A DNA stretch of 64,000 nucleotides from an uncultured Alphaproteobacteria bacterium (lineage in GTDB: Bacteria; Pseudomonadota; Alphaproteobacteria; RF32; CAG-239): NCBI GenBank assembly GCA_944391425.1, contig CALXTO010000005.1, positions 293 through 64,292 of the forward strand. Reading direction: 5' to 3'. Shown here piece after piece: positions 32,001 to 44,000 of this stretch (within the stretch, counting starts at the first letter, position 1; each line of letters opens with the position of its first letter). Made by a program: the position numbers.

Positions 32001-35000
32001 CCGACCGGCAATATGCGCCGCGAATTGTTCAAGTGGGTCAATCCGGATCAATACGGCAATATTTTTAATGCAACCAACGACAGTCTGGACCTGAAATCAA
32101 AACGTTTTATGGCTTTTGACTTTACCCATATCTTTGAAGACGAAACGTTGGCGCCGGCCGTCATTAGCTACATCATGCACCGCATACAATCCGAAACCGG
32201 CGAAACCGGCGTTCCTTCGCTGATTATGATTGATGAAACCGCGCCGATGCTAAAACACCCCATGTTCCGCGACTATTTTGCCATCGGTCTGCAGGAAGGA
32301 CGTAAAAAGCGTCAGGCTTATCTCTGCGCGTTCCAGCAGCCGAACATCATTGACAAGCTGGGTGTGGGGGAGGTCATCCGCGGCCAGTGCCAAACGGTCA
32401 TTTTCTTCCGCAACCCTCAGGCTATGCCGGAAGATTATGTCAACTGGAACCTCACTAATGCCGAAACGGATTTTATTTTCGGCAAATCTTACCGCGATTT
32501 TCCGTATGCGATTTTATTGTCGCGTCCGGCAACCGGAGAATCTGTAATTCTTGACGTTGATCTGAGCGGCCTCGGGCCCTATCTGCGCCTGTATAATTCC
32601 GGTCGCAAAAACGTTTTGCTGGTTGAAGAGCTGATTAAGGAATACGGTGAGGACAATTTTGTTACAAAATATTTAAATCTTGAGTGATTTGGGCTGAAAT
32701 CATTTTAACAGGAAACCTGAATATGCTATAATAAAGCTATATGGTTCCCCACAGGAGGCTGATATGAAATTCTATACTCTGACAAAATATCTGGCATTTT
32801 GCCTGATCGTATCCTCCTCTTTGTCCGGTGTTTCCCGGGCGCAGATTCCGGTTGCGGATATCTCCAGCGCCAAAAACAGTATTCAAAGCTGGTTTGAAAG
32901 TATTAAAGAAAGCAAGTTTGTTGTCAGTACGACCAACACAATCTCTAAAACCAGTGCAGCGATTGGTGAGGCCAAATCAACTATCTCGGAATATGTCGTC
33001 GAAAATAAAAGAAAAATTGAAGAAAAGATGGCCAAGGTAGAAAAATATAAAAAAGCGGCCGAAGAATATAAAAAAGAATATGAGGAATACAAAAAGCAAT
33101 ATGAAGATGCCAAAGCCCAGGTGGAAGAAACTGCCGAAGCGGCGCGGCAGCAGTACGAAACGGCCAGGAGTCAGGTAGAAGGAGGCATCGAAACTGCCAA
33201 ACAGACCGCTGCGGCAGCCCAGGGTGTGGTTGAAAGCGCTAAAAGTCAGGTCGGAACGGTTGCCGACAGCGTAAGCAGCGAATTAAGTTCTGCGGCGGCA
33301 AAAGCCGGAATAAACGCACAGGCAGGAAATGTGTCAACAACGCCAATAACGGCTGTCGGCGCTCAGAGCAGTCAAACGGTTTTGCCGGAAGCGTCCGGCA
33401 GTGGTACACAGCAGCCGCGTCGCAAGACCTTTACGACGCTTTCTCCGCAGGCTTCCCTTTCGGATATCCGCGGACAGGGACTGATTCGGAATAAGCAAAA
33501 GCTGGCTTTTGCTTTTGCTCTGGAACTTCAGGATAACGGAACGGATGTAAACGGCAATGTCATCATTCCGCAAAGCATTGCGATGTATCCCGGCTGCGAT
33601 CTGAGTTCCAAAACGGCACAGGAAGAAGGGAAAATGGATGCCTGCCTGCGGCTGATTAACCAAAATTCCCAAAAAGCGCGGACGGAAGATTATACTGATG
33701 CTCCGGTTATCTACCAGCGCGGAAAAGCCGAACTGGCAGCCGCGGTCGTTGCCGAAGCTTATAAAGCCAAAAATGATGCGGAAGCTTTTGAAGAAAAAAT
33801 ACTTGATCCGATAGAAGACGCACCGGCGCCGCAGGTTTTGGATATTTACTCTAATGTGGTGGAAGTCAATAAAGCTGTTGTCAATTCCCTCAACAGTTTT
33901 TTGAAGCTTCAGTCAGCGCGTTTGGCGCTGAAATCGTTTGAAAATTACGGCCGGTATGAGTTTCTTCCGGAGGAAGGATAGGTATGCCGATGCAAAAAAG
34001 TTCTGTAGCCATATTTCTCGCCGTTTTGTTTTTGGTTTTTCCGGTTTGCGGGCAGGAAACCGACATTTCCAAAATGCAGGATAATGGCACCGGACCGGAT
34101 GGTATCATGATTTTGCCGAAAGGGATGGCCATGCGTTGCGGGCTGAGCTCTCGGGACGGCTCGGATCCCGAAAAAATCAGCGCCTGTATGGATAGACTGG
34201 TGGCGCTGACGCAGGACGGTGCCGTCGGCAAGGAAAGTTCTTATGAAATCATGACGGAAATTCTCGGACAAATGAATGCCGTTTATATGCAGACGGCACT
34301 TGCTGCCAAGGCGGAAGCCGGGGATTATGAAGATAAGATGGATGAAGAAACGGGAGATTCCGCCGCGACAACGGTTCGTGACAAACAGGCGCAGCTGGTT
34401 AATCTGTCGGCAATGGGTGGCAGAAATGCCATAACTTTGAACCAGGTTTATGCTTCATTATTGTTTTTGCAGGCAATGAACGGTTTTTACGAGTATGATT
34501 TCTCCAGAAGAGAGGTTAAAGCGGAGGAATAAAGATGCGGAAAAGCTGGCGGACATATTTATTTTTGCCAATGCTGCTGACAGGGTTTGCGGCAGATGTT
34601 TATGCCGGGGTAACCGATCCGATTGCCAATGCTATAGATATGGCCAAACAAGGAATAGAGCAAGTGGGAACGGCACAGGAAAATCTGACCTCGCAGTTTC
34701 AGGGATATATGAATACCAAAATCGGCCAGATCGGCGATGTAAACGCATTGCAAAAAACAGCGCGCAAGGCGGAAAAAGCCAAACAGCGTTTGGAAAAAAT
34801 GCAGCAAAAAGCAGCCCATGCGCGTGAAGAAATTGCCAGATTGCAGGAACGCGCCCAAAAAATCCAGCAGCAGGTTGATGAGGCTAAGGCAAAAGCAAAC
34901 CAGATTATTGCCGATGCCGAAGCCGCGCGCGAAGAAATCATAAATGCTAAAAATAAAGTGGAAGAAAAAGCCGAGGAAGCCAAACAAACCGTTTCGGAAG

Positions 35001-41000: not shown

Positions 41001-44000
41001 GCGGCAGAAGAAGTCGACGCCGCCGAAAATCCGGTTGTCGAAGAAAGGCTTGGTCGCCTTAATGCCATGATTGCGGCGTTGCAAAAAGACCGTGACGAGC
41101 AAATTGTGATTACGACGGCAATTGTTGACGATAATGATATTGACGAAGAGCTGAAAAGTTCTAAAGTAAACGAAGAGGTCGCCTCCAAATTTGAAAAAAG
41201 CCTGAACAACCTGCAGCAGCTTTTGGATTTGCCGGCCGCGCCGTATTGTGCTAACTACTGATAAAAACAAGAGCAGAAAAAATGACACCTCAGCAAATCG
41301 ACAACGGACAAAAGCCTCTTTTCCTTACCGACGGTTCGGTTCAGACGCCGGAATTTTTGGAAGCTCTGGAAAAAGAGGAAGAAGGATTTAAACTCCGTTA
41401 CTATATGTGGCTGTCGCGCTTTTTCATCGCTACGACGGTGGCGTCAATGTTGTTTTTGATCAGCGCGGCGCTGGCTTTGTTTCGTTTGGCACCGATGGTA
41501 ACGGTAGAACCGTTTTTGATTATTAATCAGGACAGTTCCGAAGAAATTGTGCGCGAAGAGCCGATAACCTTTGATATGTCTTCCAAAGACAAGCTCATGG
41601 AAACTTTTATCCGCCAGTATATCATCATCCGTAATACCGTAATAAACGATCCGCAGGAGATGCGCTCGCGCTGGATGCCCGGCGGCATGATGCATCTTTT
41701 GTCCGCGCCGGATGTCTTTCTGAGTTTTTACATGACGGCGGAATCCCGCTGGGTAGATATGTTTAAGCAGGCGTTGGTGCGGGAGGTCGAAATTATCTCC
41801 ATCGGGCGTCAGGGCGGTCCGCGCAGTCCGGTTTGGAAAGTTGACTTCAAAACATATGATCTATATGACGAACAAGGCAAAAGCCAGGCGCAAAAGGAAG
41901 CGACGCTGCGCGTACGTTATTGGACGGCTTCGGTAACGGCCTATTTTATGCGTGACCGTATCTTTATGGGCCGTCGCCTGATTAACCCGTTGGGCTTTAC
42001 CGTAACCCGCTATTCTCAAACCGAAGTGGAAATCTTCTAATTTGTTGATAAGTATAGTTAAGCTGTTAGACATTTAAACTAAAAGAGTATAATTTCATAA
42101 TATCTGGAGAAGTGTATAGAGCAGAAAAGAGAGGTTCCTTTTTATGAAAAAATATTCTAAACTGTTGTTATTCATGGTTTTGTTCTTGTTGTCGGGCTGT
42201 TTTGGCTCTTATTACGAGCCGGAGCCCGTCGGTATCGGCAAAGGCAGCGACGAGTTGAAACTTTCGCCCTGCGCCTGTATGGAAATTGATTTGCCCAAGA
42301 ATTTGCCGGATTGGTTCGTTGCAACAATTTAGTTAGGAAGCGTCTATGGCCGACAGATTAGAAGCAAATTCTCAAAACCGCCGTTTAATCGGAAACGGTG
42401 CCCGCCGCCCGTCTCCGGCCCGGGCATCGTCGGATCTTTTTGTCGCCAATGTGGGCGAAAAAAGATATTTGTGGACGGCGCGCGCTTTTGCCATCATCAC
42501 GGCTTTGAGTATTTGCTGCAATCTGGTGCTGATTCTGGCCATATATCAGGTCTTGCCGTTGTATCGTGTCGAGCCTTTTCTGCTGACTTTTCAAAACCGT
42601 TCCGAACAGGTTTATAACATTCAGCCGATTAAGGAAGGCTTGCGGAATCAAAAGGCGATAACCGAAGTCTTTGTCCGCGAATATATCCTTTTGCGCAGTT
42701 CTTTTAGCCGCGACATTCCGGAAATGGAAGCGCGCTGGATGCCTGGCGGCCCGCTTCAGGAACTTTCGGCGTCCAATGTTTATCAGGACTTTTTAAACAA
42801 TACGGCCAAGAGGGCTCTCGACATCATCAGAACCAGAGGGCTGCAAAGAGATGTTAAGATTTTGTCGGTCAATGAACTGGCAAACGGCATCTGGCAGGTT
42901 GAGTATGAAACCCGCGATATGTATCCGGAATCAACTAAACCGGAAGTAAATTACTGGACAGCGTCTTTAAATGTCAGCTATCGCAGGAAAAGTGTTAAAT
43001 ATGGCGACAGGTTAAAAAATCCGGTCGGTTTCACCGTTACCAGATATGCGTTAACCTTCAATAAGGTGGAGTAATTTTCAGTGGTCTGTTCATCTCGTAG
43101 TTTTTTGATAATTTCTTCTCTTTTTATGCTGGTGGCAGGGAGTGCTTTTGCCCAGGTCAATCAGCAGATGATGGATGCCAGCGCGGAACAGGCTCAGGGC
43201 AATTATGCGCCTATGGATTTGGGGTATGCCGGTTTTAATTCTTTGGGAATGACGCAGGCCGCCTGGCTTGATCCCTTGCAGAATCTCGGAGAAGGACAAA
43301 GCCGCCCCGCTTATTCCCGTTATTACTGGTCTCCGGATTTAGTTCTGCCGGTGCGTTTGCGCGAAGGTATGATTACAATGATAAACTTCCCTGATTGGGA
43401 AATGATTGAAGATATTTTTATTGGTGACAACGCCACTTTTGACGGACAGATTGCCAGTCCGAACTCTTTGCTGCTGTATCCCCGGAAAGGCGCCAATGTC
43501 GGTGTGGATACCAACGTAATCGTTTTTGGGCGTTCCGGCAACAAATATGTCTTTTATGTTAAGAGCGAAGCCGTTAACACCGAGCGCCTGACCAACTCAA
43601 TTATCGACATCGACGTCATCGGCGGTCAGGGCGGTACCGGAAATGGAACAATCGGAACCATGGGCGGCGGCGGTGTCCTCGGTGTTCATACCGGCGGCGC
43701 CAACAGCTCAGGCGGCAAATCCGTCGATTCCAACTATACCCGTCGCTTCCAGAAAAGTGACTGGCTGAAGTCCATTCCTTTGGATCCGTCCAAATTCCGT
43801 TTTGATCTGGAGGTCTATGTGCCTAACCCCGATGATGTCGTGATTGCACCCGAACGGGTTTGGCGGGATGATATCTTTACTTATATTGACCTCGGCAAAA
43901 AAGCGCTGAACATGATGCAGCGCCCGGTCGTCAGCATGATTGTCGAACGAATTGAAGTCCCGGTCGGTTTTCGTACTAAAGGGCCGGACAACAGGCTGAT

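What the first reader, a model, noticed from the sequence alone, without database searches (positions are those of the whole stretch)
32764..41261. Six consecutive signal-peptide proteins replace VirB5/VirB6 between virB4 and virB8
All six tightly coupled ORFs (405, 182, 316, 162, 443 and 1316 aa) begin with signal-peptide-like N-termini and have no further TM segment.
- The first starts its mature part with IPVADISSAKNSIQSWFESIKE, which is VirB5/TrbJ-like.
- Its C-terminal module is paralogous to the whole second ORF (IPQSIAMYPGCDLSS...MDACLRLI vs ILPKGMAMRCGLSS...ISACMDRLV).
- Several others are Lys/Glu/Gln coiled coils.
- The 1316-aa protein has no motif I recognise.

About 8.5 kb of periplasmic or surface proteins in the slot normally occupied by the pilus-tip or minor-pilin gene suggests an expanded set of pilus-associated, adhesin or substrate proteins.
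Basis: partly seen in the sequence, partly recalled or inferred. Interest (0 to 1): 0.62.

Follow-up and report, generated by a model that had tools for sequence, protein, structure and literature searches.

The report
Fast-evolving secreted proteins in T4SS operon
Six exported, mostly helical proteins sit where the pilus-tip gene (VirB5) normally lies in a type IV secretion operon that every sampled species of an uncultured gut alphaproteobacterial order carries; the first looks like a much-enlarged VirB5 relative, the largest has no known fold, and all six evolve far faster than the machine's core.

Summary
Six tightly packed + strand ORFs (405, 182, 316, 162, 443 and 1316 aa) lie between virB4 and virB8. 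Each has a signal-peptide-like N-terminus and no later hydrophobic segment. No Pfam, NCBIfam, PHROGs or PDB family matches any of them.

The block is conserved. Proteins A, E and F are present in 60 of 60 related loci, and F in 151 of 151 genomes of the order. D, C and B are optional.

- **A is modular.** Its first ~50 mature residues resemble VirB5-type proteins. A 260-aa "compact A" in a sister family has DUF4141, VirB5 and TrbJ as its best, sub-threshold, matches.
- **B and C are paralogues of A's parts.** A's C-terminal Cys-loop module matches B (hhalign 99.4%). A's N-terminal module matches C (95.4%).
- **F folds confidently but matches nothing.** The AlphaFold2 model (pLDDT 80) shows long coiled coils plus a Cys-rich globular domain, with no Foldseek match.
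- **The six evolve fast.** They share about 30% identity across species, against 64-88% for VirB4, VirB8 and VirB9, yet dN/dS stays at or below 0.18.

VirB6 is not replaced; VirB6-like genes lie elsewhere in the window and genome.

My best reading is a lineage-specific, VirB5-derived stalk, tip or surface subunit set. This is a new variant of a known kind, and its function is untested.

The parts
32705..32732 (+). Promoter-like element (TTAACA, 16 nt, TG-extended TATAAT) in the 76-nt gap between virB4 and ORF A
   Evidence: This is the best-scoring site (11 of 12) in 23000-42500. A TG-extended -10 about 30 nt upstream of the A start recurs in roughly 40 of 60 related loci. It is a consensus match only.
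32764..33981 (+). ORF A, 405 aa. Signal peptide (residues 1-26), VirB5-type N-terminal segment (about 27-75, QIPVAD...AAIGEAKSTISEY), coiled coil (about 75-180), low-complexity linker (about 180-245), and a C-terminal Cys-loop helical module (245-405, invariant C278/C294).
   Evidence: 19 homologues; N and C domains conserved, linker variable. (hhalign). (compact 260-aa orthologue). (AlphaFold2, all-helical, pLDDT 48). (Cys).
33984..34532 (+). ORF B, 182 aa. A free-standing copy of A's C-terminal module (DNGTxxDG...C-x15-C...helices...acidic tail).
   Evidence: 99.4%, E 1e-21. (alignment A4, invariant Cys pair). (359 relatives, all B-like or A-like). Present in 32 of 60 loci.
34535..35485 (+). 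ORF C, 316 aa. A paralogue of A's N-terminal module (head plus coiled coil) with a Ser/Thr/Ala/Gln-rich tail and no Cys.
   Evidence: A_N against C without signal peptides: 95.4%, E 2e-8, 148 columns in register from the mature N-terminus. Present in 47 of 60 loci.
35478..35966 (+). ORF D, 162 aa (169 from the upstream ATG at 35457). A small signal-peptide protein.
   Evidence: The D-like 244-aa protein in the sister family scores E 1e-5. Present in 50 of 60 loci. No amino-acid change against the close strain.
35966..37297 (+). ORF E, 443 aa. A signal-peptide coiled-coil protein with one conserved Cys (C365).
   Evidence: Present in 60 of 60 loci. The E-like 408-aa protein in the sister family scores E 8e-8.
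37311..41261 (+). ORF F, 1316 aa. Signal peptide, helical N-terminal domains, two helices of about 88 residues (582-668 and 727-815), an alpha/beta globular domain (about 886-1116), a helical C-terminal bundle, and nine conserved Cys.
   Evidence: full-length homologues at 27-65% identity. (AlphaFold2 of residues 117-1316: pLDDT 80.2, pTM 0.69). (no Foldseek hit at E <= 1e-3 in PDB or BFVD). (PDB profile search: coiled-coil noise only). (151 of 151 genomes of the order)..
30255..32687 (+). Context: virB4 (810 aa), the upstream boundary of the block
   Evidence: Pfam CagE_TrbE_VirB, E 3e-13.
41282..43074 (+). Context: virB8a, a 62-aa VirB7-like lipoprotein (42144-42332) and virB8b, the downstream boundary
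   Evidence: Pfam VirB8, E 4e-17 and 2e-23. Lipobox LLSGC.
60532..63120 (-). Context: VirB6/TrbL-like polytopic protein (862 aa). VirB6 is therefore present but outside the operon.
   Evidence: Pfam TrbL, E 1.2e-7. Six to seven hydrophobic segments. Further copies on contig C42.

Best explanation
The six ORFs are Sec-exported, lineage-specific subunits of the extracytoplasmic part of this type IV secretion system. They fill and expand the VirB5 slot.

**Origin of the genes**
- A is the VirB5 equivalent. It keeps the VirB5-type mature N-terminus, the segment that in R388 projects from the VirB5 pentamer seated on the VirB6 platform. It has gained a coiled coil, a variable linker and a disulfide-looped helical C-terminal module.
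- B is a duplicated C-terminal module of A. C is a duplicated N-terminal module of A.
- D, E and F are older partners, already present in the sister family. E and F are elongated coiled-coil proteins, and F carries a Cys-rich globular domain.

**Proposed mechanism**
After signal-peptide cleavage the proteins assemble in the periplasm on or around the VirB6/VirB2 assembly site. They then either form the stalk or are pushed outward as a tip or surface complex. Being exposed, they diverge fast.

**What is shown**
- Gene order and conservation.
- Export-type N-termini.
- The two paralogies.
- The N-terminal likeness to VirB5-position proteins.
- The confident but novel fold of F.
- The rate contrast with the core machine.

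**What is inferred**
- Physical association with the T4SS.
- Location at the tip or surface.
- Any adhesin role.
For: 1. **Strict embedding in the operon.** The block sits between virB4 and virB8 with gaps from -8 to +13 nt. A, E and F are in 60 of 60 species-level loci. F is in 151 of 151 genomes and 20 of 20 genera of the order. There are no paralogues elsewhere in the genome.
2. **Signal-peptide-like N-termini.** All six have them, as do 319 of 326 ORFs in this slot. Conserved Cys pairs, and nine conserved Cys in F, fit an oxidising compartment.
3. **The VirB5 link.**
   - The own genome has no PF07996 match even at E <= 10.
   - The sister-family gene right after virB4 is a 260-aa protein. 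The A_N profile hits it at E 4e-11 and the B/A_C profile at E 5e-6.
   - That protein's best family matches are DUF4141 (E 8e-7, 28.8 bits against a cut-off of 30), VirB5 TIGR02791 (E 0.0015) and TrbJ (E 0.0027).
   - DUF4141 proteins lie between traG (VirB4) and traJ in Bacteroides conjugative transposons (PMC10434189).
   - Five VirB5-position proteins of the nearest plasmid systems align to mature A residues 1-47 at 83%, E 9e-6. One of them is named a T4SS protein by PGAP.
4. **Paralogies.** A_C to B is 99.4%. A_N to C is 95.4%.
5. **Rates.** Median identity across loci is 29-33% for A-F, against 88% for VirB4, 64-72% for VirB8 and 69% for VirB9. dN/dS is 0-0.18, so the genes are constrained.
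6. **F's structure.** The AlphaFold2 model has pLDDT 80 and shows an elongated coiled coil plus a globular head.
7. **Background.** VirB5 pentamer on VirB6, then pushed out at the pilus tip: PMC9259494, PMC12857230. CagL/CagI/CagH as a precedent for several neighbouring secreted proteins sharing a C-terminal motif: PMC3164655.
Against: - There is no localisation, interaction or expression evidence.
- The VirB5 likeness covers only about 50 residues and is sub-threshold for every curated model. Without the signal peptide, A against a narrow VirB5 profile gives 1.6%.
- A's AlphaFold2 model is poor (pLDDT 48), so the VirB5 fold could not be tested.
- Helical, low-complexity sequence inflates weak profile scores.
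- None of the six carries a known adhesin domain.
- Fast evolution fits substrates or effectors equally well.
Confidence: 0.55

Rival explanations
1. The proteins are periplasmic scaffold or outer-membrane-core accessory subunits, as Cag3, CagM and CagT are in the Cag system or DotF/DotG partners in Dot/Icm. They would fill the enlarged periplasmic chamber created by the giant split VirB10. They would not be pilus-tip or surface proteins.
For: - The same operon encodes a 1138-aa and a 1519-aa beta-flower/VirB10 pair and a SPOR-tagged VirB9, so an oversized periplasmic assembly is likely.
- E and F are long coiled coils.
- The core set A/D/E/F is as universally conserved as the machine itself.
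Against: - Buried scaffold subunits would be expected to evolve at rates near VirB8/VirB9, not at about 30% identity.
- A keeps the VirB5-type N-terminus.
- A separate promoter-like site in front of A hints at higher or separate expression, as for filament or tip subunits.
Confidence: 0.22
2. The proteins are two-step secretion substrates. They would be exported by Sec, assembled in the periplasm and then expelled by the T4SS, as pertussis toxin is by Ptl. That would make them a secreted effector or toxin-like complex, not machine parts.
For: - They have Sec-type signal peptides.
- They evolve fast.
- They have conserved disulfide Cys.
- There is no VirB5 family match in the genome. Ptl likewise lacks VirB5, and its toxin has been proposed as a VirB5 analogue (PMC12857230).
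Against: - The genome does encode two VirD4-like coupling proteins, unlike Ptl.
- There is no similarity to any toxin or effector family.
- A, E and F are fixed in every species at a fixed position inside the machine operon, which is unusual for effectors.
- A shares its N-terminus with VirB5-position proteins of plain conjugative-type plasmid systems.
Confidence: 0.15
3. The proteins are unrelated periplasmic or envelope proteins that merely hitch-hike in the operon, or some of the ORFs are not real genes.
For: No known domain matches any of the six.
Against: - dN/dS is 0-0.18 over 162-1316 codons.
- Full-length conservation holds across 60 or more species.
- Order and position are fixed between virB4 and virB8 in all genomes.
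- The F model is confident.
Confidence: 0.03

Closest known systems
VirB5/TrbJ family (PF07996, TIGR02791; TraC of pKM101, TrwJ of R388) and the DUF4141 (PF13605) proteins of Bacteroidetes conjugative transposons
   Same: - The gene lies directly after virB4.
- It has a Sec signal peptide.
- The mature N-terminus is of the type Q-[IV]-P-[VT]-x-D followed by an amphipathic helix.
- The protein is all-helical.
- A compact 260-aa orthologue in the sister family has these families as its best hits.
   Different: - No curated threshold is reached.
- The likeness is confined to about 50 residues.
- A is 405-840 aa, with a coiled coil, a variable linker and a Cys-loop module that VirB5 lacks.
- That module and the N-terminal module also occur as separate genes (B and C).
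CagL/CagI/CagH of the Helicobacter pylori Cag T4SS (PMC3164655, PMC3320882)
   Same: Several neighbouring, exported, helical, T4SS-specific proteins share a C-terminal element. They stand in for VirB5 and sit in a system with a giant repeat-bearing VirB10. They are variable between strains.
   Different: - No sequence match was found. The PDB profile searches, which cover any deposited CagL and CagI chains, returned only coiled-coil noise.
- The sizes and the number of genes differ.
- The shared element here is a 150-residue domain, not a short motif.
Bartonella Trw T4SS with amplified trwL (VirB2) and trwJ-I-H (VirB5, VirB6, VirB7) copies (as summarised in PMC12857230)
   Same: The pilus-associated surface components are expanded by duplication inside a VirB-type locus, with sequence-variable copies.
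   Different: - Here whole canonical genes are not duplicated. Instead the modules of one VirB5-like gene are, alongside three unrelated proteins (D, E, F).
- VirD4-like genes are present elsewhere in the genome.
MobA/MobL-linked VirB-type T4SS of alphaproteobacterial plasmids (Microvirga sp. VF16 pMVF16-3, Erythrobacter aureus, Sphingosinicella p1)
   Same: - These are the nearest annotated relatives of the machine (VirB4 35-39% identical).
- They share the order virB2-B3-B4-[VirB5-type]-...-small SPCAC lipoprotein-virB8-B9-B10-B11.
   Different: - Only two or three genes lie between virB4 and virB7/8: one 251-273-aa VirB5-type protein plus a 420-450-aa protein.
- There is no F, no B or C, a single VirB8 and a normal-sized VirB10.
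- They are plasmid-borne and sit next to a relaxase.
Rickettsiales vir homologue (rvh) T4SS (from my own recollection of the rvh literature)
   Same: - It is chromosomal and fixed in a reduced-genome alphaproteobacterial lineage.
- It has duplicated VirB8 genes flanking a VirB7-like lipoprotein and several enlarged VirB6 paralogues.
- It has no recognisable VirB5.
   Different: In rvh the genes that follow virB4 are polytopic RvhB6 proteins. Here they are six soluble exported proteins without membrane segments.

Membership tests
VirB5/TrbJ (PF07996, TIGR02791, PRK13874) | Significant match to the curated family model | tested here: not met
   - No hit for A-F at E <= 0.1.
- No PF07996 hit in the whole genome at E <= 10.
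- The compact sister-family orthologue reaches only E 0.0015 (18 bits against a cut-off of 132) for VirB5 and E 0.0027 for TrbJ.
- The Microvirga 273-aa protein scores PF07996 at E 0.17.
VirB5/TrbJ (PF07996, TIGR02791, PRK13874) | Sec signal peptide and a gene position immediately downstream of virB4 | tested here: met
   A starts 76 nt after the virB4 stop and has the cleavage-type site SRA|QIPVAD. The position is the same in 60 of 60 loci.
VirB5/TrbJ (PF07996, TIGR02791, PRK13874) | Conserved mature N-terminal segment (hydrophobic-P-V-x-D plus helix) | tested here: met
   - hhalign of five VirB5-position proteins against A_N without signal peptides gives 83%, E 9e-6, over 47 columns.
- DUF4141 covers residues 26-71 of an A orthologue at E 0.026.
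- Against a narrow Rhodobacterales VirB5 profile the score is only 1.6% once the signal peptide is removed. So this holds at the level of a motif or segment, not of a domain.
VirB5/TrbJ (PF07996, TIGR02791, PRK13874) | Three-helix-bundle-plus-appendage fold of about 220 aa | tested here: inconclusive
   The AlphaFold2 model of A is all-helical but has pLDDT 47.8. Foldseek against PDB gave no hit at E <= 1e-3, and no TraC or CagL among the top 50.
VirB5/TrbJ (PF07996, TIGR02791, PRK13874) | Pentamer seated on VirB6, located at the pilus tip | not testable with these tools
   This needs multimer modelling, purification or imaging.
VirB6/TrbL (PF04610) | Polytopic inner-membrane protein with five or more hydrophobic helices | tested here: not met
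   None of the six has a hydrophobic segment beyond the signal peptide. The TrbL match lies at 60532-63120 on the minus strand.
CagL/CagI/CagH-type VirB5 substitutes | Sequence or structural similarity to CagL or CagI | tested here: not met
   - The profile searches of A1 and A2 against all PDB chains returned only coiled-coil noise.
- Foldseek returned no Cag protein.
- Only the logic is shared, namely neighbouring secreted proteins with a common C-terminal element.
F-type accessory periplasmic proteins (TraN, TraU, TraW, TraH, TraF, TrbC) | Match to the corresponding Pfam or NCBIfam models | tested here: not met
   No such hit at E <= 0.1.
Ptl-type two-step substrates (pertussis-toxin-like) | T4SS lacking VirD4, and substrate subunits with toxin domains | tested here: not met
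   Two VirD4-family ORFs are present in the genome. No toxin family matches.

The most novel reading that the evidence does not exclude
A, D, E and F (with B and C as add-ons) build a previously undescribed extracellular tip or fibre complex. A VirB5-derived head would nucleate on VirB6, and two long coiled-coil proteins, perhaps disulfide-linked through E's single Cys and F's odd ninth Cys, would carry a Cys-rich globular domain that contacts target cells. On this reading the T4SS, fixed in every species of a reduced-genome gut alphaproteobacterial order, is a contact organelle essential to their lifestyle.
Probability: 0.25. Interest if true: 0.8.

Novelty: new variant of a known kind. Interest (0 to 1): 0.6.

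Why it matters
How T4SSs without a recognisable VirB5 start pilus or channel assembly, and what they present to target cells, is an open question. Examples include the F, Ptl, ComB and rvh systems.

This lineage offers a natural series. It runs from a 250-270-aa VirB5-type protein in related plasmids, through a 260-aa compact form in a sister family, to a modular 400-840-aa protein whose two halves have been copied into separate genes. Three further conserved partners accompany it, one of them a 1300-aa protein with a confident but unmatched fold.

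The system is fixed in all sampled species of a widespread, uncultured, small-genome gut lineage, and its exposed parts diverge very fast. It is therefore likely central to how these bacteria interact with hosts or neighbours. It also gives more than 150 orthologous sets for co-evolution and multimer modelling.

Tried and rejected
- **Family scans.** Pfam, NCBIfam and PHROGs scans of all six gave only coiled-coil-type noise: SMC, Rad50 and tape measure.
- **PDB profile searches.** The A and F alignments returned nothing beyond coiled coils.
- **AlphaFold2 of A.** The model was too poor (pLDDT 48) for a fold test, and Foldseek found nothing significant.
- **Foldseek of the good F model.** No hit at E <= 1e-3 against PDB or BFVD.
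- **hhalign against a VirB5 profile.** The profile was built from Rhodobacterales plasmid VirB5 proteins. The signal disappears once the signal peptide is removed. The profile is narrow, so this is a weak negative.
- **A shared module in all six.** I rejected this. After trimming signal peptides only A_C to B and A_N to C survive. B to D is 18%, A_N to E is 56%, and F matches nothing.
- **Iterated HMM searches.** They drifted through coiled-coil similarity, so I used best-hit and positional assignment instead.
- **Representative search with the B/A_C module.** It found 359 relatives, but the 150 listed were all B-like or A-like. A Pfam scan of 69 of them gave no bridge apart from weak DUF4141.
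- **R388 record.** I tried to fetch it as a yardstick, but the accession is not in the collection.
- **Other features in the region.** No Rfam family and no notable tandem repeat.

Full report
**What is there**

The window carries a divergent VirB-type T4SS on the + strand. Its genes, in order, are:
- a VirB2-like gene and a 1781-aa protein with a VirB2 hairpin;
- a 96-aa two-helix ORF and virB4 (30255-32687);
- the six ORFs of the finding;
- virB8, a 62-aa LLSGC lipoprotein and a second virB8;
- a virB9-SPOR fusion, a split giant beta-flower/VirB10 pair, and virB11.

They are separated by -8 to +13 nt. All have a basic-hydrophobic-AXA type N-terminus and no further hydrophobic segment on a Kyte-Doolittle scan. 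SignalP was not available, so the signal peptides remain heuristic calls.

No Rfam family and no notable repeat lies in the stretch. Against a 97%-identical strain, dN/dS is 0.13 (A), 0.08 (B), 0.18 (C), 0 (D), 0.07 (E) and 0.065 (F). VirB4 gives 0.011 and the VirB8 genes 0.05-0.08. These are real, constrained genes.

**VirB6 is not replaced**

A TrbL/VirB6-family polytopic protein lies at 60532-63120 on the minus strand, with a second partial copy after it. More VirB6 and VirB8 paralogues lie on other contigs. The genome is 1.47 Mb and estimated 100% complete. It has no PF07996 (VirB5) match even at E <= 10. It has two VirD4-family ORFs elsewhere. None of A-F has a paralogue outside this block.

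**Conservation**

A profile of F recovered 75 loci from species-representative genomes. All are uncultured gut or rumen Alphaproteobacteria, for example Proteobacteria bacterium CAG:495 and Candidatus Scatocola faecipullorum. F is present in 151 of 151 sampled genomes and 20 of 20 genera of the order, in genomes of 1.3-2.0 Mb.

In the 60 loci that include both virB4 and virB8:
- A, E and F are always present; D is in 50, C in 47 and B in 32.
- The commonest order is ABCDEF (26 loci, plus 5 in which B scores as A). Next come ADEF (7) and ACEF (6).
- 319 of 326 ORFs in the slot start with a hydrophobic segment.

The one genome of a sister family (G224) has virB4 followed by ORFs of 260, 244, 408 and 922 aa, then virB8. 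My family profiles identify these as A-like (E 4e-11 for A_N; E 5e-6 for the B/A_C module), D-like (1e-5), E-like (8e-8) and F-like (1e-91). The ancestral core is therefore four genes.

**Internal relationships**

With signal peptides trimmed, profile-profile comparison leaves two solid relationships:
- A's C-terminal 160 residues match all of B: 99.4%, E 1e-21. BLASTP gives 25% identity, E 1e-10.
- A's N-terminal module matches C's: 95.4%, E 2e-8, over 148 columns in register from the mature N-terminus.

The other pairs are not supported. The B/A_C module has the signature D-N-G-T-x3-G...C-x15-C, with both Cys invariant, followed by long helices and an acidic tail. A full HMMER scan of 1.84 billion representative proteins found 359 proteins with this module. 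Every one of the 150 listed was either B-sized or carried the module at the end of an A-sized protein. A few carried two copies.

**Is A a VirB5?**

By curated models, no. But the compact 260-aa A orthologue of the sister family has these as its best matches, all over its first 35-70 residues:
- DUF4141: E 8e-7, 28.8 bits against a cut-off of 30.
- VirB5 TIGR02791: E 0.0015.
- TrbJ PRK13874: E 0.0027.

DUF4141 also weakly covers residues 26-71 of a 560-aa A orthologue. In Bacteroides thetaiotaomicron conjugative transposons, the DUF4141 gene lies between traG (VirB4) and traJ (PMC10434189).

The nearest annotated relatives of the machine are MobA/MobL-linked plasmid T4SSs of Microvirga, Erythrobacter and Sphingosinicella, with VirB4 35-39% identical. 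Their gene after virB4 encodes a 251-273-aa protein with a mature start of QVPVLD, GIPVID or QIPTID. PGAP names one of them a T4SS protein. The Microvirga protein scores PF07996 at E 0.17 and the A profile at E 1e-5. A small alignment of these five proteins matches mature A residues 1-47 at 83%, E 9e-6.

The likeness is limited to about 50 residues, and family membership is not met. AlphaFold2 of A was all-helical but of low confidence (pLDDT 47.8), so the fold could not be tested.

**F**

The AlphaFold2 model of residues 117-1316, built with 64 sequences, has pLDDT 80.2 and pTM 0.69. It shows helical N-terminal domains, two helices of about 88 residues, an alpha/beta domain at about 886-1116 and a helical C-terminal bundle. 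Foldseek found nothing at E <= 1e-3 in PDB or BFVD; only dynein, SMC and tape-measure coiled coils appeared. The PDB sequence-profile search was likewise empty.

F has nine conserved Cys and E has one. The odd counts suggest an intermolecular disulfide. This is speculation.

**Rates**

Across the same loci, median identity to the window is as follows:

| Protein | Median identity |
|---|---|
| VirB4 | 88% |
| VirB8 | 64-72% |
| VirB9 | 69% |
| A-F | 29-33% (0.2-0.5 bits per residue, against 1.3-1.9 for the core) |

A's linker also varies by indels between close strains: there is a 370-aa variant at 91% identity.

**Regulation hint**

The best sigma-70-like site in 19.5 kb is TTAACA-16-TG-TATAAT at 32705-32732, in the virB4/A gap. 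A TG-extended -10 about 30 nt before the A start recurs in roughly 40 of 60 loci. It is a consensus match only.

**Interpretation**

Known biology sets the frame. A VirB5 pentamer sits on the VirB6 pentamer with its N-terminal part projecting out, and is pushed out at the tip of the growing VirB2 pilus (PMC9259494, PMC12857230). In Cag, three neighbouring secreted proteins that share a C-terminal motif take the VirB5 role (PMC3164655). In Trw, surface components are amplified (PMC12857230).

The best-supported reading is that A-F are exported, T4SS-specific subunits of the stalk, tip or surface part. A would be the VirB5 equivalent, and B and C duplicated modules of it. Rivals are a buried periplasmic scaffold role (0.22), two-step secreted substrates (0.15) and unrelated passengers (0.03). 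None can be excluded without localisation data.

Earlier notes of this scan on other genomes reached a similar description: a fast-evolving set of secreted helical proteins where VirB5 and VirB6 normally sit. I treated them as leads and re-derived the points here. I found no paper describing this system.

Noticed in passing
window 32705-32732 (+): A strong promoter-like site (TTAACA-16-TG-TATAAT) sits between virB4 and ORF A. A TG-extended -10 at the same distance recurs in about 40 of 60 related loci, which suggests an internal transcription start for A-F and perhaps the downstream genes.
   Followed up: partly
window 37058-37060 (E Cys365) and F Cys106/183/189/395/1010/1023/1053/1094/1313: E has a single conserved Cys and F an odd number (nine) of conserved Cys. 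An E-F intermolecular disulfide is possible.
   Followed up: no
own genome, contigs C10 (11814-13397) and C20 (24932-26458): Two VirD4-family ORFs (750 and 782 aa) lie away from the T4SS operon, so the system is not of the VirD4-less type. Their neighbourhoods were not examined.
   Followed up: no
own genome, contigs C42 (5681-8385) and C40 (842-2255): There are extra VirB6-like paralogues (two) and an extra pair of VirB8-like genes outside the window, an rvh-like proliferation.
   Followed up: no
window 42144-42332 (+); L127:17382-17558: The 62-aa LLSGC lipoprotein between the two virB8 genes shares the motif SPCAC with the 58-aa lipoprotein at the same position in the Microvirga plasmid T4SS. 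It is a conserved VirB7-like partner.
   Followed up: partly
L045 and L061 (MGYG-HGUT-04400 and BRZ_KF bin25): In these two species F is read as two ORFs (230 + 1217 aa), and the first two genes score in the order C-like then A-like. This is either a rearranged variant of the block or assembly or frameshift effects.
   Followed up: no
P0002 versus window 32764-33981: A 91%-identical variant of A is 370 aa long. It lacks about 35 residues of the Ser/Ala-rich linker, so linker length changes even between close strains.
   Followed up: no
L015 (A-like 843 aa); P0173 and P0175: Some A-like proteins carry two copies of the B/A_C module, and the separate B gene is then missing. Fusion and fission of this module is ongoing in the lineage.
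   Followed up: partly
L095 (G224:C2) 4021-4629: The sister-family locus contains a run of N (masked or withheld sequence) inside the ORF after the first VirB8-like gene, so its gene content downstream of the F-like gene could not be fully read.
   Followed up: no
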